Source of the DNA: Escherichia phage vB_EcoM_IME537
Length of the DNA: 64,000 nt
Sequence record: NC_054921.1
Direction: 5' to 3' (one strand)
In this document: positions 3,949-59,326 of the stretch, piece by piece
How the letters are laid out: each line of letters opens with the position of its first letter
How positions within the stretch are numbered: the first letter of the stretch is position 1
Program-made: the position numbers and the translations under genes
Notes under the pieces: generated by a model
Told to the model about the DNA's origin: nothing
The model's input: only the letters and a program-made list of their open reading frames with translations
The model's database searches: none

Positions 3949-4314
3949 TTAAATATCAAATTCGTTAAGAACTACATCAAAGATTGCTTCAAGATGCTCA
4001 GGTTTAGCTCTGTTACTCAGAATATGACGAATCCAAGTTTTAACCAGAAGCTTGCGATTAACGCCATTCCAGCAAGGATGAGTCCCTAAATCGCGTTGAC
4101 GAAAATCATCATCCAATGCGATTTTAAAAGAAGAACCTTCTTTCGTGATTGAAACCGTGATGCCATTTTCAAATCGCATATAAACGTAGTTAGGAGTCAT
4201 ATACTGTTCAATTTCGCATACTGATCCATTTTGATGTTTCCAAAGGCAGATAGTATCAATAGAACCTGCAATACCGTTAGAAACATATTTACGTTCAAAG
4301 TTGATGTAATTCAT
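3949..4314 (-). CDS. hypothetical protein, 121 aa
   Basis: ORF downstream of early promoter. Confidence 0.55.
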   Translation of the reverse strand: MNYINFERKYVSNGIAGSIDTICLWKHQNGSVCEIEQYMTPNYVYMRFENGITVSITKEGSSFKIALDDDFRQRDLGTHPCWNGVNRKLLVKTWIRHILSNRAKPEHLEAIFDVVLNEFDI

Positions 4315-4339
4315 TTTTATTCTCCGAGATGTTTAATTG

Positions 4340-4380
4340 CGGTACAGGTATATAATATCATATCCTGTACCAAAGTAAAC
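4340..4380 (-). promoter_or_regulatory. T4-type early promoter (GTTTAC -35, TATTAT -10)
   Basis: minus strand GTTTAC-17 nt-TATTAT upstream of ORF 3949..4314. Confidence 0.5.
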
Positions 4381-4384
4381 TATT

Positions 4385-4753
4385 TTATGCAACTTTAATC
4401 CAATTATCTAAATTTAATTCACCTTTGGCTTTCATTTTTTCAATCAAGAGGTCAGCGGTAATACGACCATTTTGATACCACGTAACATCTTCAGAGTAAC
4501 CAGTTTCTTTATCTTCATAAGTCTCACAGCGAATTTTACCAAGAATCAAAGTTTTTAATTCGTATGTATCTCCAGTAAAAAAGTTAGTTAACATTATTTT
4601 CCAAGAGAAATCATCAGAAGGACCTTCAGGAGTCATACAATCTACGAATTCAAATTGTTCTTTATATAAATGCCACTGAAGTTCTTTAGTTTCAATAGCT
4701 TTATAGCCGTCGTGATCTTTACCTTTGATGTATGAGTTAAGATTGATTTTCAT
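4385..4753 (-). CDS. hypothetical protein, 122 aa
   Basis: ORF downstream of early promoter. Confidence 0.55.
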   Translation of the reverse strand: MKINLNSYIKGKDHDGYKAIETKELQWHLYKEQFEFVDCMTPEGPSDDFSWKIMLTNFFTGDTYELKTLILGKIRCETYEDKETGYSEDVTWYQNGRITADLLIEKMKAKGELNLDNWIKVA

Positions 4754-4770
4754 TTTATTCTCCTTTGTTT

Positions 4771-4810
4771 GTGTAAGATAATACTATCACAAAGGAACCA
4801 TACTGTAAAC
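4771..4810 (-). promoter_or_regulatory. T4-type early promoter
   Basis: minus strand GTTTAC ... TAGTATTAT upstream of ORF 4385..4753. Confidence 0.5.
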
Positions 4811-4838
4811 AACTTTGTGCAATCTTTGGAAAATAAAA

Positions 4839-4858
4839 AGGACTCCCGAAGGAGTCCT
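4839..4858 (-). terminator. AGGACUCC-UUCG-GGAGUCCU hairpin
   Basis: 8-bp stem with tetraloop; identical copy at 58850..58869. Confidence 0.45.
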
Positions 4859-4862
4859 TAAC

Positions 4863-5039
4863 TTATGCTTTCTGCTTACCAAAACGAGAAGCATCATCTC
4901 GAAGAACCGCACGTGCTCGGCGCATGATCTTCTCAACAGTTTGATTGATACGAGAGTTCGACCCACGCTTGTAACCAGCGCGTTTAGAATCACCGACTTT
5001 CTTTTCAACTGCTTTCTTTGCTTTAGCTTGTTTTGCCAT
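4863..5039 (-). CDS. small highly basic protein, 58 aa (MAKQAKAKKAVEKK...)
   Basis: ATG at 5039 within track ORF 4863..5081; Lys/Arg-rich; function unknown. Confidence 0.5.
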   Translation of the reverse strand: MAKQAKAKKAVEKKVGDSKRAGYKRGSNSRINQTVEKIMRRARAVLRDDASRFGKQKA

Positions 5040-5081
5040 TATAAATTCTCTTTTAAATGAAAATGCAGGACTTATTGGCAT

Positions 5082-5284
5082 TGCCTGCGCAAGCCCTCAA
5101 GGGGAACATAGGTTTTTGGATATTTAACGACCAGGATAACCATAAACCCGTCATCATTCACATTCAAGAGGTACACCGTAAAACTGCCGGGGTCTTAAAA
5201 CTATAATGATTCGCAAATCATTAATCAGACAGTTCGACGGCTCCTCGATTTTAGCTCACACTAAGGCAGTGAATCTCCAATGAA
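5082..5284 (-). other. 203-bp stretch with no ORF of 60 aa or more between rIII and the basic-protein gene
   Basis: unusually long non-coding gap for this genome; local hairpins; no recognisable promoter box. Confidence 0.4.
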
Positions 5285-5533
5285 TTACTTCAGTGTTACC
5301 ACAAAGTGACGAACTGCTTTTCGTGCAGCAGAAGCCAGAGGCTTAGCATATTTAAGTTCATCTTTTTCCTGAAGCTCAGCAGCTAATGCAGTTTGAGCAG
5401 GATTCAGATGTTTGAAATAACGCAGGATTTCAAGAGCTTCGGCTTCAACATCAATAGATGCGCCATAGTTTTCGTGACCATTATTCCATGCGTTTCGTTG
5501 CAGTTCAAGAGCGTGTTGTAATTGTTTAATCAT
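5285..5533 (-). CDS. rIII: rIII lysis-inhibition accessory protein
   Basis: 82 aa, matches T4 RIII as recalled. Confidence 0.9.
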   Translation of the reverse strand: MIKQLQHALELQRNAWNNGHENYGASIDVEAEALEILRYFKHLNPAQTALAAELQEKDELKYAKPLASAARKAVRHFVVTLK

Positions 5534-5680
5534 TTAAAAATTCTCGTTAGAGATTAAAACTCGGTAGTCACGTTCTTCTGAATTTCATCTTCTTTCGACA
5601 GATCTCTCAGTTGTAGACTACCACGTAGAATTGTTCGGTTAACTTATTATTCCGACACCCAATTCATATTATTATTTATA

Positions 5681-6016
5681 TCACTTATAAAGACACGGAA
5701 TAGCTTTATAGTGACATGTTACGAATTTTTGTTTAATTTCTTTTGGCTGCTTAAGACCCAGAGCTACAAAAGGATGCGGAACGTTTCGAATTTGACCAAC
5801 TGGAAGAGAAGTCAAATCACCAACTTCGCAGAAACCTTCGGGAACATCAGGACCAACAGAGTGAATTACACACAGTTCAGGAACTTCACCTTGAACACGT
5901 TTACCGATAATAAGTCCTGATTCTGTAACTTCTTCATCACCGGCTTGTGCAGGTTCAGAAACTAAAATAACATATTCACCTACAGCACGAATTGGTAGCT
6001 GTTGTACTTCAGACAT
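5681..6016 (-). CDS. 31: gp31 co-chaperonin (GroES analogue)
   Basis: 111 aa, matches T4 gp31 as recalled. Confidence 0.95.
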
Positions 6017-6072
6017 CGTTTTTCCTTTTTGTTAACAGATGAATTAATAATAACAAATAATTCTTAAAGCAT

Positions 6073-6381
6073 TTATTTACCAATAAATTGAAGCAAATGC
6101 TCAACTTTCATGCCATTAACGGAAATCAATTTGTCAATAGAAAAACCTCGCCATGCACCGAGTTCAACATCAAATACCGGAATCATATCAGTAGATTCTT
6201 TCCGAGTAGATTCAGTCAATTTACCGGTTTGCATGGTTGGCATAAAGTCTGCATCACGAGTACCTTTCATAGTACGAATAGTACCATCAGACTTTTCAAA
6301 AACTACGTTTGAAACACCCATGGACAATTTAGTTTTCAAAATTTCACGAATTGCTACTTTCTGCTCAGTTGTCAGTTTCAT
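6073..6381 (-). CDS. hypothetical protein, 102 aa (31.1 position)
   Basis: ORF upstream of gene 31. Confidence 0.55.
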   Translation of the reverse strand: MKLTTEQKVAIREILKTKLSMGVSNVVFEKSDGTIRTMKGTRDADFMPTMQTGKLTESTRKESTDMIPVFDVELGAWRGFSIDKLISVNGMKVEHLLQFIGK

Positions 6382-38803: not shown

Positions 38804-38892
38804 TTTCTAATCTCCGTAATTCTGCATCAGTAGTTGATAGTTGTATAGTACCACAGTATGCTTTGGAGGGAGAGCTTCGGCTCTCCCTAAAA

Positions 38893-39042
38893 TTACTGCA
38901 TGACTGTGATAACTGTCATGATAACGCGTTGAATTCCGAACGCAAGAAGACCTCCTGCTACGGCTGGAACAACACCTAAACCCGCCAGTAAAATGCCGCC
39001 AGATACTAACGCCGCGCTTGTAATACCAATGAATGGACTCAT
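38893..39042 (-). CDS. small membrane protein, 49 aa
   Basis: hydrophobic; ATG overlaps gene 52 stop (ATGA). Confidence 0.45.
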   Translation of the reverse strand: MSPFIGITSAALVSGGILLAGLGVVPAVAGGLLAFGIQRVIMTVITVMQ

Positions 39043-40367: not shown

Positions 40368-40371
40368 AAAT

Positions 40372-40512
40372 TTACCATACTAGTGAATGTAGTGCCATAA
40401 TAACATCAGAAATGAAAAGCACGACTTGAATTAATCCGAACATTACTCCATAATATAGTGCTACCAGTAAAGCAGCAAGGGCTACTGAGTAGCCCAAGAT
40501 TTTCTTAATCAT
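40372..40512 (-). CDS. small membrane peptide, 46 aa
   Basis: hydrophobic; ATGATTAA overlap with ac stop. Confidence 0.45.
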   Translation of the reverse strand: MIKKILGYSVALAALLVALYYGVMFGLIQVVLFISDVIMALHSLVW

Positions 40513-40660
40513 TAGATAACAACGCAAATGTTAAACATGCACACATACCCTGAGCTAAAGCTTGCGAAAACACGCTGCTGACATCAATACAGATAGTTAA
40601 AACACATGCTACTATCCAACAAATAAATGAAATAACTCCTAATAATTTTGCAATATTCAT
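40505..40660 (-). CDS. ac: Ac-like small membrane protein (acridine sensitivity)
   Basis: 51 aa hydrophobic ORF between 52 and stp. Confidence 0.6.
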   Translation of the reverse strand: MNIAKLLGVISFICWIVACVLTICIDVSSVFSQALAQGMCACLTFALLSND

Positions 40661-40667
40661 ATTTTCC

Positions 40668-40748
40668 TCACTGGCGTCCGAAGACGCCTTTAGTTTTAAG
40701 ATTGTTACGATAGAACTGCATTACGTGTTCGTTATGGAAATTACTCAT
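40668..40748 (-). CDS. stp: Stp peptide (activator of host PrrC anticodon nuclease)
   Basis: 26 aa [26 protein letters not shown], matches T4 Stp as recalled. Confidence 0.85.
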
Positions 40749-41813: not shown

Positions 41814-42157
41814 AGTAAGCGTTTAATACATCAATCATTAAAACGATTGGGAATATACTCAAAACTATTAGTATTATAACTACATTCCATATAGCTTTAA
41901 CAATCTTTTTCATTTTCTGTTCCTCCGTAGTTGATAGGGTAATAGTACCACGGAAGAACAGTCTTGTAAACAACTTTTTTTAAAAATATTCGTAATAAAT
42001 GTGAATACCAACTACTACCGCTGAAACCTGTGCAACCCACCACGCACAAGCAATAAGTACAGAATTCAAAATTTTCATAATAACCTCATCACAAAAGTAA
42101 ATGTTAAACAAATTACTGGAATACTAATTAACCAAACAAAACACCACCACAGTGAAC

Positions 42158-59113: not shown

Positions 59114-59152
59114 AATAAACTCCTTTATTGTTTAATTACAAGTGTATTTATA

Positions 59153-59326
59153 TCAATCTTCAATGAAAACTTGTGCCAGGAATTCATGCTCATCTTGAAT
59201 TTGTTTATATAAAGCCATTACAGCATTTATGTTAGAGCTATCTACTTTAAGTTGATAAGCATACCACTCATGTAAATTAATTAAAGCTTTTTGACGTCTA
59301 ATAAATTCTTCTTTGGATATTTTCAT
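59153..59326 (-). CDS. hypothetical protein, 57 aa
   Basis: ATGA overlap with upstream ORF stop. Confidence 0.4.
   Translation of the reverse strand: MKISKEEFIRRQKALINLHEWYAYQLKVDSSNINAVMALYKQIQDEHEFLAQVFIED

What the first reader, a model, noticed from the sequence alone, without database searches (positions are those of the whole stretch)
4863..5284. Small very basic protein gene followed by an unusually long non-coding gap
A 58-aa Lys/Arg-rich ORF (MAKQAKAKKAVEKKVGDSKRAGYKRGS...RFGKQKA), reminiscent of nucleic-acid-binding or ribosome-associated proteins, is preceded on the transcript by about 200 nt (5082..5284) with no ORF of 60 aa or more. The gap has local hairpins (for example AAUGAUU-CGCAA-AAUCAUU) but no promoter box I recognise. 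It could be a structured leader or small RNA, or a decayed gene.
Basis: seen in the sequence. Interest (0 to 1): 0.45.

Follow-up and report, generated by a model that had tools for sequence, protein, structure and literature searches.

The report
Mobile structured RNA beside T4 rIII
The "empty" 245 bases between T4-type genes rIII and 30.9 are not a dead gene but a string of conserved folded RNA modules, one of which (about 90 nt) is an unannotated RNA family shared with unrelated E. coli phages; its function is unknown.

Summary
The 58-aa basic ORF (4863-5039, minus strand) is T4 gene 30.9, and 245 nt (5040-5284) separate it from rIII. T4 itself has the same unannotated spacer.

The spacer is non-coding. 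Indels and a lost ATG break every small ORF in relatives, and the old 97-aa "ORF D / 11.1 kDa protein" is a frameshift fusion.

It is a mosaic of RNA modules:
- **Block 1 (5160-5249)** is a four-helix irregular hairpin. It is 100% identical in RB69, where flanking genes are 72-95% identical.
- It is absent from some Tequatroviruses.
- It also occurs beside tRNA genes in rV5-like phages, upstream of the large terminase gene in phiEco32-like podoviruses, and in phi92-like phages by recent transfer.
- In 22 distinct sequences, 98.7% of cells pair and 13 of 24 pairs show compensatory changes. Internal-loop bases stay invariant, and invariant G·U pairs fix the sense strand.
- There is no Rfam family, bacterial copy or paper.

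Downstream hairpins (5046-5157) look like the 30.9 leader proper.

Best reading: an autonomous, horizontally mobile RNA module recognised by a host factor. Its role is probably RNA processing or stabilisation, or it is a processed small RNA. The function is inferred, not shown.

The parts
5285..5533 (-). Gene rIII (82 aa, lysis-inhibition accessory protein). It is the upstream gene of the transcript that carries the spacer.
   Evidence: ORF list. phrog_1457 at E=5e-44. T4 annotation.
5248..5284 (-). Module 0: variable 5' part of the spacer, with a small hairpin CACUG-CCU-UAGUG (5259-5271). It resembles the 5' flank, acceptor strand and D-arm of a phi92-like phage tRNA-Gln gene, so it is probably a tRNA-gene remnant.
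   Evidence: In T4 the 13-mer TTTATTGGAGATT, and in this window (TTCATTGGAGATT) its last 10 nt, match the native tRNA-Gln 5' junction of Justusliebigvirus. Local alignment to the tRNA-Gln gives 75 of 5000 shuffles at least as good. Module 0 is absent in RB69 and differs in IME08.
5160..5249 (-). Block 1: a ~90-nt structured RNA module. Layout: P1 (4 bp), bulged A, P2 (5 bp), C/U mismatch, P3 (8-10 bp), junction UGAU, P4 (8 bp with a UNNG tetraloop), 15-nt junction UAGUUUUAAGACCCC, and a 3' GUA internal loop. The helices span 5168-5246.
   Evidence: Covariance model R1 scores 117.7 bits here, the only hit in the window. RNAalifold result. Across 22 distinct sequences, 98.7% of cells pair and 13 of 24 pairs change on both sides, against 0-1 in slid controls. 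MFE -25.9 kcal/mol, z = -3.6. It is 100% identical to RB69 over 5162-5241.
5204..5223 (-). P4 hairpin of block 1 (UAAUGAUU-UGCG-AAUCAUUA).
   Evidence: Four of its 8 pairs covary, for example UAGCAAUC/GAUUGUUA in Kuravirus and UAUCGAUU/AAUCGGUA in JS09.
5189..5203 (-). Unpaired junction J4/3 (UAGUUUUAAGACCCC). Its core, UAGUUUUA..CC(C/A)C, is conserved across phage families while the stems around it change.
   Evidence: Alignments of the T4-like, W70/A5-4 and Kuravirus copies.
5110..5157 (-). Block 2a: a hairpin module (stem 5125-5156, loop containing GGUUAUC) with an A-rich tail. It is conserved across Tevenvirinae, including Klebsiella, Serratia and Erwinia phages, and also occurs in the rV5-like phage A5-4.
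   Evidence: Alignments. In the 7-bp stem, 94.6% of cells pair and 3 pairs have compensatory changes; slid controls give 0. The single-sequence fold is not exceptional, z = -0.3.
5055..5104 (-). Block 2b: small hairpin P5 (CCCC-UUGA-GGG, 5094-5104) and hairpin P6 (GCAGG-14 nt-CCUGC, 5065-5088), followed by a U-rich run (5055-5064). This is a candidate weak terminator or regulatory hairpin of the 30.9 leader.
   Evidence: The P6 stem is replaced by GAACUGG/CCAGUUC in Salmonella phage STML-198, with the loop CAAUAAG conserved. P5 is kept in KP179 and Cronus. RNAalifold gives little covariation overall. Neither hairpin was called by the terminator scan.
5046..5063 (-). Possible hairpin UUUUC-AUUUAAAA-GAGAA that would pair the Shine-Dalgarno-like GAGA of gene 30.9.
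   Evidence: Present in the MFE fold of 5040-5108. Analogous UUCUCC..GGAAGA sequences occur in STML-198 and KP179. This is an inference and has not been tested for covariation.
4863..5039 (-). Gene 30.9: a 58-aa, very basic protein of unknown function.
   Evidence: phrog_1427 at E=2e-31, no Pfam match. 68 homologues at 63-100% identity in T4-like phages of many enterobacterial hosts. Invariant SKRA.YKR.SN.R and RAR.V...FG motifs. The AlphaFold2 model is one long helix (residues 19-53), mean pLDDT 70.
4830..4859 (-). Intrinsic terminator after gene 30.9 (AAGGACUCC-UUCG-GGAGUCCUU followed by UUUAUUUU). It marks the end of the rIII-spacer-30.9 transcription unit.
   Evidence: Terminator scan: 9-bp stem with a T-run. 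Annotated as a terminator in phage GiZh.

Best explanation
The rIII-30.9 spacer is transcribed with rIII and 30.9 and is a mosaic of independent, exchangeable structured RNA modules.

**Block 1.** The core module (window 5160-5249) is a self-contained ~90-nt RNA element that moves horizontally among virulent E. coli phages of four unrelated groups. It folds into a long irregular hairpin. The stems are free to covary, but the internal-loop and junction nucleotides are fixed: GGAGC, UCGAA/UUUU, CUGAUUA, UAGUUUUA..CC(C/A)C and GUGUACC.

**Inferred mode of action.** The phages that carry block 1 share almost no proteins, and its neighbours differ in each group: 30.9, tRNA genes, or the large terminase gene. 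Its function must therefore sit in the RNA itself, and it most likely depends on recognition by a host (E. coli) factor.

**Most likely mechanism (inferred, not shown).** A cis-acting punctuation element of polycistronic transcripts: a processing or stabilising site for a host ribonuclease such as RNase E or RNase III. The unpaired AG|UUUU junction fits my recollection of the RNase E site preference. Cleavage there could also release the hairpin as a discrete small RNA, in the way the tRNA-cluster RNAs rnaC and rnaD are released.

**The 3' part of the spacer.** Block 2a and hairpins P5, P6 and the SD hairpin (5046-5157) stay with gene 30.9 throughout Tevenvirinae. This part is the real 5' leader of 30.9 and probably controls its translation.

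**Shown:** non-coding status, conservation, secondary structure, strand, modular presence/absence, and horizontal spread.
**Inferred:** transcription as one unit, a host-factor partner, and a processing role.

**Confidence.** The figure of 0.5 covers the statement as a whole. That this is a conserved, autonomous structured RNA module I put at about 0.9. The specific processing or stability role I put at about 0.3.
For: **Non-coding status**
- T4 has the identical unannotated gap.
- 1-nt indels and an ATG-to-ACG change break all small ORFs in RB69 and IME08.
- The 97-aa ORF D is a frameshift fusion.

**Exceptional conservation**
- Window 5162-5241 is 100% identical to RB69 and 98% to IME08.
- rIII and 30.9 are 72-95% identical, and the 31-rIII spacer 35-68%.

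**Structure**
- RNAalifold predicts 25 pairs, 7 of them compensatory.
- On 22 distinct sequences, 98.7% of cells pair and 13 of 24 pairs change on both sides, against 0-1 in slid controls.
- The same fold is the MFE in the T4-type, A5-4 and FH3 copies, with z-scores of -3.6 to -4.1.
- Even near-identical copies carry a G-C to A-U double change (GiZh and muut).

**Strand**
- 70 of 528 paired cells are G·U, two of them invariant positions.
- Pairing drops to 85% on the opposite strand.
- The orientation is always that of the flanking genes.

**Autonomy and mobility**
- Absent in EcNP1-type Tequatroviruses, where the gap is 120 nt.
- A clean ~92-nt presence/absence between Kuraviruses FH3/SU10 and phiEco32. 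NJ01 carries a different hairpin at the same site.
- In rV5-like W70 and A5-4 it lies just upstream of tRNA genes and an rnaD homologue.
- In phi92-like muut it sits within a T4-derived insert in the tRNA cluster.

**Phage-only, single copy**
- No E. coli chromosomal match and no genuine bacterial hit.
- One copy per genome.

**Transcription unit**
- No promoter or terminator lies between rIII and the spacer, and a strong terminator follows 30.9.
- rIII is reported to be expressed from early, middle and late promoters (PMC9409239).

**Leader part**
- Block 2a and P5 are retained next to 30.9 in Klebsiella, Serratia and Erwinia phages.
- The block 2a stem covaries.
Against: - No expression data were available, so a discrete RNA species, a cleavage site or any host partner is unproven.
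- The RNase E/III idea rests only on architecture and on a loose consensus match recalled from memory.
- Simple stabiliser or processing hairpins do not usually need such strict conservation of about 30 unpaired or weakly paired nucleotides. That degree of conservation fits a specific protein or RNA partner, a ribozyme or an aptamer equally well.
- Natural variants that keep only the basal half (EcMI02, STML-198, EP335) may be decaying copies, or they may mean that only the base matters.
- Phages lacking block 1 are viable, so any role is accessory.
- Much of the near-identity among T4-like genera could reflect recent horizontal spread rather than purifying selection alone.
- Classical 32P-labelling work, recalled from memory, mapped all abundant stable T4 RNAs to the tRNA cluster. 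This argues against an abundant stable species from this locus.
Confidence: 0.5

Rival explanations
1. A trans-acting small RNA gene. Block 1, and perhaps the other modules, are cut out of the polycistronic transcript and act elsewhere, for example as a decoy or sponge for a host defence or takeover target. On this view the rIII-30.9 spacer is a second small-RNA cluster, analogous to the tRNA/rnaC/rnaD cluster.
For: - In rV5-like phages block 1 lies in a promoter-driven operon of tRNAs plus an rnaD homologue.
- The modules shuffle in order and in presence, as tRNA genes do.
- Module 0 looks like a tRNA-Gln remnant.
- Unpaired sequences are strictly conserved.
- Spread among phages sharing a host is typical of accessory fitness or counter-defence factors.
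Against: - Block 1 has no promoter, no terminator and no CCA-like or RNase P-type end of its own.
- No stable T4 RNA from this locus is known (from memory).
- No target could be proposed.
- There is no similarity to rnaC or rnaD: model R1 finds nothing in the T4 tRNA region.
Confidence: 0.25
2. A cis-regulatory leader, either a riboswitch or a protein-binding operator, controls gene 30.9. The basic gp30.9 or a metabolite would bind the structured RNA and set translation or termination.
For: - The conserved junctions with covarying stems look like an aptamer.
- The orientation is always sense and upstream of a gene.
- In Kuravirus the motif is followed by a G-rich segment, a terminator-like hairpin and the Shine-Dalgarno sequence of the large terminase gene.
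- Block 2a, P5 and P6 do co-occur with 30.9 in all Tevenvirinae.
Against: - For block 1 the downstream genes are unrelated: 30.9, tRNAs, and the large terminase gene.
- Cassettes of 45 or 153 nt can sit between block 1 and the gene.
- phiEco32 keeps the terminator-like hairpin without the motif, so that hairpin is not a dedicated expression platform.
- EcNP1-type phages express 30.9 without block 1.
- In W70 only ~20 nt separate block 1 from a tRNA gene.
Confidence: 0.12
3. A processive antitermination RNA, working like the put RNAs of phage HK022. The nascent hairpin would bind the transcribing host RNA polymerase and let it read through downstream terminators.
For: - The element is autonomous and cis-oriented, and lies upstream of terminator-like hairpins in T4-likes (P6 and the terminator at 4830-4859) and in Kuravirus.
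- In W70 it lies at the head of a highly structured tRNA operon.
- The partner would be a host protein common to all carriers.
Against: - There is no sequence or structural likeness to put. As I recall them, put RNAs are two stem-loops just downstream of a promoter.
- In T4-likes block 1 is more than 400 nt from the nearest promoter.
- Nothing was tested.
Confidence: 0.08
4. A self-cleaving ribozyme of a new class. Such ribozymes are also scattered in phage genomes without consistent gene neighbours.
For: The genomic contexts are context-independent and sense-oriented. Junction nucleotides are strictly conserved, one copy lies near tRNA genes, and the element is mobile.
Against: - No hit to any Rfam ribozyme model, even at E<=10.
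- The fold is one long hairpin with internal loops. No multi-helix junction or pseudoknot was detected.
- No conserved candidate cleavage site was identified.
Confidence: 0.06
5. The element works at the DNA level, as a recombination hotspot, homing-endonuclease site or origin-like palindrome, or it is a decayed protein gene (ORF D). On this view it is not a functional RNA.
For: - Presence/absence polymorphism at fixed sites, and a circularly permuted copy in muut flanked by 13-nt repeats, show DNA-level mobility.
- The distal half has been deleted more than once.
- UniProt still lists a 97-aa protein here.
Against: - 13% of paired cells are G·U, including invariant ones. These are mismatches in a DNA cruciform or on the other strand.
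- Compensatory changes occur in all four helices.
- There is one copy per genome, unlike repeat elements.
- ORF D needs a frameshift that is absent from the current T4 sequence, and indels in relatives break it.
Confidence: 0.04

Closest known systems
T4 small stable RNAs rnaC and rnaD (species 1 and 2 RNAs of the tRNA cluster)
   Same: They are phage-encoded structured RNAs of unknown function, co-transcribed with other genes and without their own promoter. In the rV5-like phages W70 and A5-4, block 1 lies in the same operon as tRNAs and an rnaD homologue.
   Different: There is no sequence or model similarity: R1 finds nothing in the T4 tRNA region. Block 1 has no tRNA-like 3' end. In T4 it lies 60 kb from the tRNA cluster, between protein genes. 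No stable RNA species has been shown.
RNase III processing hairpins between the early genes of phage T7 (for example R1.1), and RNase E sites in tRNA-operon spacers
   Same: They are autonomous intercistronic hairpins with conserved internal loops. They act in cis on polycistronic phage RNA through a host nuclease and are placed just after stop codons. This comparison draws on my own knowledge of these sites.
   Different: There is no homology. The continuous stem is 17-19 bp interrupted by a bulge and a mismatch. The 15-nt junction strand and the P4 arm have no T7 counterpart. Cleavage has not been tested.
PeSL (promoter-early stem-loop) mobile regulatory cassettes of T4-type phages (PMC2839356, PMC4122927)
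   Same: They are short intergenic motifs in T4-like genomes associated with insertion, deletion and replacement between close relatives. The mini-circle excision and integration proposed for PeSLs would explain the circularly permuted T4 fragment in phage muut.
   Different: PeSLs combine a sigma-70 promoter with a short terminator stem-loop and occur many times per genome. Block 1 has no promoter, is a ~90-nt multi-helix hairpin, and is single-copy. It also shows RNA-level covariation.
Orphan structured RNA motifs and riboswitch aptamers found by comparative genomics (Rfam-type candidates)
   Same: They share covarying stems around invariant junction nucleotides, intergenic location and sense orientation.
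   Different: Block 1 has no consistent downstream gene and no dedicated expression platform. It matches none of the 4227 Rfam 15 families, even at E<=10.

Membership tests
T4 gene 30.9 protein family (phrog_1427) | Sequence match to the family profile, and position downstream of rIII | tested here: met
   phrog_1427 at E=2.3e-31 over residues 1-58. 100% identical homologues carry the T4 30.9 names. Synteny is rIII-spacer-30.9-30.8.
Any Rfam 15 RNA family | Covariance-model hit at or near the gathering score within 5040-5284 | tested here: not met
   No hit in the gap even at E<=10. No hit on the homologous loci L007, L015 or L016 at E<=1, apart from tRNAs.
tRNA or tRNA-like gene | Cloverleaf detected by ARAGORN or the Rfam tRNA model | tested here: not met
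   ARAGORN finds no tRNA in the window, and there is no Rfam tRNA hit in 4300-6100. Only module 0 resembles the first ~25 nt of a tRNA-Gln gene.
Riboswitch | Conserved aptamer with covarying stems | tested here: met
   13 of 24 pairs show compensatory changes, and junction nucleotides are invariant.
Riboswitch | Consistent association with one functional class of downstream genes, and an expression platform that overlaps the aptamer | tested here: not met
   The downstream genes are 30.9, tRNAs or the large terminase gene. Cassettes intervene between block 1 and the gene. phiEco32 keeps the terminator-like hairpin without the motif.
Riboswitch | Specific ligand binding | not testable with these tools
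   This needs in-line probing or ITC.
Known self-cleaving ribozyme classes (hammerhead, twister, twister-sister, pistol, hatchet, HDV-like, hairpin) | Match to the class consensus (Rfam models) | tested here: not met
   No such hit at E<=10. By eye, CUGAUUA differs from the hammerhead CUGAUGA core at the catalytic G; this judgement is from memory.
Self-cleaving ribozyme (new class) | Site-specific self-cleavage | not testable with these tools
   This needs an in vitro transcription and cleavage assay.
PeSL mobile regulatory cassette | Sigma-70-type early promoter (TTTACW N17 TAYWAT) joined to a short stem-loop | tested here: not met
   No promoter-like site in 5040-5284. The PeSL definition comes from PMC4122927.
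PeSL mobile regulatory cassette | Many copies per genome | tested here: not met
   There is a single R1 hit in the 64-kb window and one place per phage record.
RNase III or RNase E processing site | About 20 bp of irregular double helix, or a single-stranded A/U-rich segment next to stable stems | tested here: inconclusive
   P1-P3 stack to 17-19 bp with a bulge and a mismatch. The junction UAGUUUUAAG is unpaired in the consensus. This is compatible with such a site but not specific to it.
RNase III or RNase E processing site | Cleavage in vivo or in vitro that depends on the nuclease | not testable with these tools
   This needs primer extension or RACE in rnc and rne-ts hosts.
T4 rnaC / rnaD | Homology to the T4 species 1 or species 2 RNA | tested here: not met
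   R1 finds nothing in the T4 tRNA/rnaC/rnaD locus L018. By contrast, the A5-4 operon does contain a true rnaD homologue downstream of block 1.

The most novel reading that the evidence does not exclude
The rIII-30.9 spacer of T-even-type phages is a hitherto unrecognised second small-RNA locus. It would hold a set of exchangeable structured RNA genes: block 1, block 2a with cassette D, and the 137-nt element C found in Klebsiella, Serratia, Erwinia and some E. coli T4-likes. Block 1 would be a host-directed RNA, for example an RNA-based counter-defence or takeover factor or a new catalytic or ligand-binding RNA, traded among at least four families of virulent coliphages.
Probability: 0.25. 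Interest if true: 0.8.

Novelty: new variant of a known kind. Interest (0 to 1): 0.62.

Why it matters
T4 is the most thoroughly annotated phage, yet this spacer carries no feature in the reference record. It holds an RNA more conserved than the neighbouring genes.

The same ~90-nt fold occurs in myoviruses (T4-like, rV5-like, phi92-like) and in podoviruses (phiEco32-like) that infect E. coli. This implies selection for an RNA-level function that works in any transcript and probably through a host factor.

Natural presence/absence pairs already exist: EcNP1 against T4, and phiEco32 against SU10/FH3. The function is therefore directly testable.

If the RNA proves to be a processing signal, it adds a portable regulatory part. 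If it is a trans-acting or catalytic RNA, it would be a new class of phage RNA.

The work also removes a spurious protein from consideration: the 97-aa "11.1 kDa protein", and the "1,4-alpha-glucan branching enzyme" label attached to 30.9 in many GenBank records.

Tried and rejected
1. **Decayed or frameshifted protein gene.** Rejected. T4 has the same sequence. Indels and a lost ATG occur in relatives. ORF D is a fusion of the 34-aa and 72-aa ORFs.

2. **Known RNA family.** Nothing in Rfam 15 at E<=10. The weak Atu_C8 and Phe_leader hits at 4824-4907 are only the hairpins around the 30.9 stop and terminator.

3. **tRNA or tmRNA.** None found.

4. **Host-derived sequence.** No E. coli match. 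The one "bacterial" hit, L193, is a 3-kb contig, probably phiEco32-like phage DNA binned into a metagenome-assembled genome.

5. **CRISPR-repeat mimic (RNA anti-CRISPR).**
   - Module 0 shares TTCACTGCC, and 18 of 28 positions, with the type I-F repeat as I remember it.
   - The repeat's GGCAG arm is missing.
   - The segment is better explained as a tRNA-Gln acceptor and D-arm remnant.
   - This idea was not pursued further.

6. **Pseudoknot between the A-rich 5' flank and GUUUUA.** Topologically implausible across a 17-19-bp stack.

7. **Kink-turn or sarcin-ricin motif in the A/GUA internal loop.** The sequences do not fit either consensus (assessed by eye).

8. **Small peptide inside block 1 (MICESL).** Not conserved in Kuravirus or JS09.

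9. **Wider family.**
   - Three IMG/VR pattern scans, one metagenome scan and one genome scan, followed by covariance-model filtering, found only T4-like, phi92-like and phiEco32-like copies.
   - The loose pattern produced about 110 chance matches.

10. **Literature.**
    - No paper in the library mentions the element or contains its sequence.
    - The 2003 Biologija paper on rIII and 30.9 expression and the 2003 T4 genome review were not available.

11. **gp30.9 fold.** The model is a single helix with moderate confidence, so no fold search was run. The profile search against PDB gave only insignificant SlmA matches.
Full report
**Where we are.** The window is a Tequatrovirus genome, 99.8% identical to phages PD112 and HY03 over the region. 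On the minus strand the order is:
- cd, 31.2, 31.1
- gene 31 (5681-6016)
- rIII (5285-5533)
- a 245-nt spacer (5040-5284)
- gene 30.9 (4863-5039)
- an intrinsic terminator (4830-4859)
- gene 30.8

T4 itself (NC_000866) has the same arrangement and annotates nothing between rIII (130785-131033) and 30.9 (130364-130540).

**The observation.**
- The 58-aa ORF is as described, with pI 11.4.
- The ORF-free run 5082-5284 is 203 nt, the fifth longest in the window.
- The real spacer is 245 nt. The in-frame ATG at 5081, which gives a 72-aa ORF, is ACG in RB69 and IME08.

**The protein.**
- gp30.9 belongs to phrog_1427, function unknown, and has no Pfam match.
- It is 63-100% identical in T4-like phages of Escherichia, Klebsiella, Serratia, Yersinia, Pectobacterium, Cronobacter and Edwardsiella.
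- It has invariant SKRA.YKR.SN.R and RAR.V..FG motifs.
- AlphaFold2 gives a disordered basic N-terminus and one long helix, residues 19-53, with mean pLDDT 70.
- No solved relative was found.
- The UniProt "11.1 kDa protein in Gp30-rIII intergenic region" (97 aa, ORF D of X17657) joins the 34-aa ORF at 5053-5157 to the 72-aa ORF through a frameshift. That frameshift is absent from the present T4 sequence and from this window.

**The spacer is non-coding but highly conserved.**
- Aligning the window with T4, T6, RB69 (Mosigvirus), IME08 (Dhakavirus) and F1 shows two almost invariant blocks separated by a variable insertion site.
- In 40-nt windows, 5162-5241 is 100% identical to RB69 and 98% to IME08.
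- rIII and 30.9 are 72-95% identical. The 31-rIII spacer is 35-68% identical.
- One-base indels in RB69 and IME08 shift every small ORF.

**Modules (for coordinates).**

*Module 0 (5248-5284).*
- It is variable, and absent in RB69.
- In T4 it begins TTTATTGGAGATT. Those 13 nt are identical to the native junction upstream of, and into, the tRNA-Gln gene of phi92-like phages. The window itself reads TTCATTGGAGATT, so it matches over the last 10 nt.
- It aligns with the acceptor strand and D-arm of that tRNA. 75 of 5000 shuffles score as well.
- It is probably a tRNA-gene remnant.

*Block 1 (5160-5249).* This is the structured core, described below.

*The insertion point after ..CUUGAAUGU.* It holds:
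- nothing in T4 and in this window;
- a ~45-nt hairpin, "cassette D", in T6, RB69 and IME08;
- a ~153-nt cassette, "element C", in F1-type phages.

*Block 2a (5110-5157).*
- It is a hairpin with GGUUAUC in the loop.
- It is conserved in Klebsiella, Serratia and Erwinia T4-likes and in the rV5-like phage A5-4.
- Three of its 7 stem pairs covary.

*Block 2b.*
- It consists of P5 (5094-5104) and P6 (5065-5088), followed by a U-rich run.
- The P6 stem is replaced compensatorily in STML-198.
- A further possible hairpin (5046-5063) covers the Shine-Dalgarno region.

**Block 1 is a bona fide RNA structure.**
- Its layout is P1 (4 bp), a bulged A, P2 (5 bp), a C/U mismatch, P3 (8-10 bp), UGAU, P4 (8 bp with a UNNG loop), a 15-nt junction, and a 3' GUA loop.
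- RNAalifold on 11 variants gives 25 pairs, 7 with double changes.
- On 22 distinct sequences from four lineages, 98.7% of cells pair and 13 of 24 pairs change on both sides. Controls with the 3' partner slid by 1-3 columns give 0-1 such pairs.
- Examples of covariation:
  - P2 changes from GCCGU/ACGGU to GCCAU/AUGGU in GiZh and muut, and to GCUGU/ACAGU in Kuravirus.
  - P3 is GAACUGUC/GGCAGUUU in T4-types, GAAGAUUGUC/GACAAUCUUU in W70, and GAAGAACAUC/GAUGUUCUUU in FH3.
  - P4 changes from UAAUGAUU/AAUCAUUA to UAGCAAUC/GAUUGUUA.
- The fold is the MFE in three lineages, with z-scores of -3.6 to -4.1.
- 70 of 528 paired cells are G·U, two of them invariant. The transcribed minus strand is therefore the functional one, and a DNA cruciform is unlikely.
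- The unpaired or weakly paired nucleotides GGAGC, UCGAA/UUUU, CUGAUUA, UAGUUUUA..CC(C/A)C and GUGUACC stay fixed while the stems change.

**Block 1 is autonomous and mobile.**
- About 110 of ~770 T4-like records have only the 3' half of the spacer. In EcNP1 the gap is 120 nt.
- Outside Straboviridae it occurs in three further groups:
  1. *rV5-like phages W70 and A5-4.* It lies downstream of a consensus-like promoter that I read by eye, and directly upstream of two tRNA genes and an rnaD homologue.
  2. *phiEco32-like podoviruses (FH3, ShigP1, SU10 and metagenomic contigs).* It lies between a 157-aa ORF and the large terminase gene. This is a clean ~92-nt presence/absence relative to phiEco32. 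NJ01 has a different hairpin at the same site, and EP335 has a basal-half remnant.
  3. *phi92-like phages (muut and relatives).* The whole T4 spacer, plus the last 90 nt of rIII, is inserted in circularly permuted form, flanked by the 13-nt repeat, at the 5' end of tRNA-Gln. Related phages show the empty site.
- The element is always in the sense orientation and single-copy.
- There is no copy in E. coli genomes or in other bacteria.
- There is no Rfam family and no paper.

**Interpretation.**

*What is shown.* The spacer is a mosaic of conserved RNA structures. Block 1 is an independent RNA module under selection for fold and for specific loop sequences, and it has been exchanged among coliphages.

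*What is inferred.*
- The carriers share a host but few proteins, and the neighbouring genes differ. The partner is therefore most likely a host component, and the element must work wherever it is transcribed.
- I favour a cis-acting processing or stabilising punctuation element. It is a long irregular stem just after a stop codon, with an unpaired AG|UUUU junction that fits the RNase E preference as I recall it. The tRNA-operon context in W70 also fits. Cleavage there might also liberate a small RNA.
- A trans-acting small RNA, put-like antitermination, a new ribozyme or an aptamer remain possible. I rank them in the rival list.
- A classical riboswitch is unlikely because there is no common downstream gene or platform.
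- The 3' hairpins that always accompany 30.9 are the plausible leader of that gene, possibly for autoregulation by the basic protein. This is untested.

**Comparison with known systems.**
- Block 1 works most like the intercistronic processing hairpins of T7, or the tRNA-cluster small RNAs of T4. It is homologous to neither.
- It differs from PeSL cassettes, which have a promoter plus terminator and occur in many copies (PMC4122927). The mini-circle mechanism proposed for PeSLs would nevertheless explain the permuted insert in muut.

**Verdict.** This is a real, previously unannotated structured RNA family in one of the best-studied genomes. Its function is unknown, and it is testable with natural presence/absence variants.

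Noticed in passing
L015 1473-1820 (phage muut, NC_052657); also L097 8378-8725 and L149: phi92-like phages carry the whole T4-type spacer plus the last ~90 nt of rIII. The insert is circularly permuted (junction ATAATGG|AAAAAGATG) and flanked by the 13-nt direct repeat TTTATTGGAGATT, at the 5' end of their tRNA-Gln gene. Relatives BME3 and alia have the empty site. It looks like integration of a circular T4-derived DNA by a single crossover.
   Followed up: partly
L007 928-1092 (phage F1); L180 901-1035 (Klebsiella phage KP179); L181 (Serratia phage Muldoon); L179 (Erwinia phage Cronus). Absent from this window; the insertion point is about 5160.: A ~137-nt non-coding "element C" occupies the rIII-30.9 spacer in about 400 T4-like phages of Klebsiella, Enterobacter, Serratia, Erwinia and some E. 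coli hosts. It is 79-99% identical across them and has no Rfam hit. A multi-helix fold has 37 pairs, 96.8% of cells paired and 7 pairs with compensatory changes. It is a second candidate new RNA.
   Followed up: partly
L004 893-943 (RB69), and T6/IME08 equivalents, inserted at window ~5160: The ~45-nt "cassette D" between block 1 and block 2a folds as a hairpin. It shares GGTTAT(C)CTGTC with the block 2a loop, and 67 of 2000 shuffles score as well. It may be a tandem paralogue presenting the same loop motif.
   Followed up: partly
L016 1846-1938 (phage A5-4), compared with T4 rnaD (L018 1554-1672): rV5-like phages encode a clear homologue of the T4 species 2 RNA (rnaD) just after tRNA-Met (0 of 2000 shuffles score as well). 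This orphan T4 RNA therefore also occurs outside Straboviridae.
   Followed up: partly
L014 642-687 (EcMI02), L011 642-687 (STML-198), L184 346-391 (EP335): The distal half of block 1 (P3 tip, P4 and junctions) has been deleted independently in T4-like and phiEco32-like lineages, leaving a simple basal hairpin. These are either decaying copies or a hint that the base is a functional unit.
   Followed up: no
L183 345-462 (phage NJ01): At the exact site where other Kuraviruses carry block 1, NJ01 has an unrelated ~45-nt hairpin (GCUGUAUGGAUGCUGG..CCAGAUAUGCAGC). The site appears to be a hotspot for hairpin modules.
   Followed up: no
window 5534-5680: The 147-nt spacer between gene 31 and rIII contains a T4 late-promoter motif (TATAAATA, near 5668). 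It is poorly conserved, at 35-68% identity to RB69 and IME08, and so contrasts with the rIII-30.9 spacer.
   Followed up: no
window 40368-40747, 41814-42157, 38804-39038, 59114-59322: These are the other long stretches without an ORF of 60 aa or more (380, 344, 235 and 209 nt). They probably hold very small genes, but they were not examined.
   Followed up: no
GenBank and UniProt records for gene 30.9 (for example MN716856, OP978391, KY290975; P0018): Many deposited T4-like genomes label the 58-68-aa gp30.9 as "1,4-alpha-glucan (glycogen) branching enzyme, GH-13-type". This is an evident annotation-pipeline error that has propagated.
   Followed up: no
window 5242-5246 and 5273-5276: GGAG, the RegB endoribonuclease target motif as I recall it, occurs in module 0 (UUGGAGAUU). 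It is also invariant in block 1, where it spans P1, the bulged A and P2. The upstream gene product RIII is reported to inhibit RegB activation through ribosomal protein S1 (PMC9409239). A connection is possible in T4-likes, but it cannot explain the copies in other phage families.
   Followed up: no
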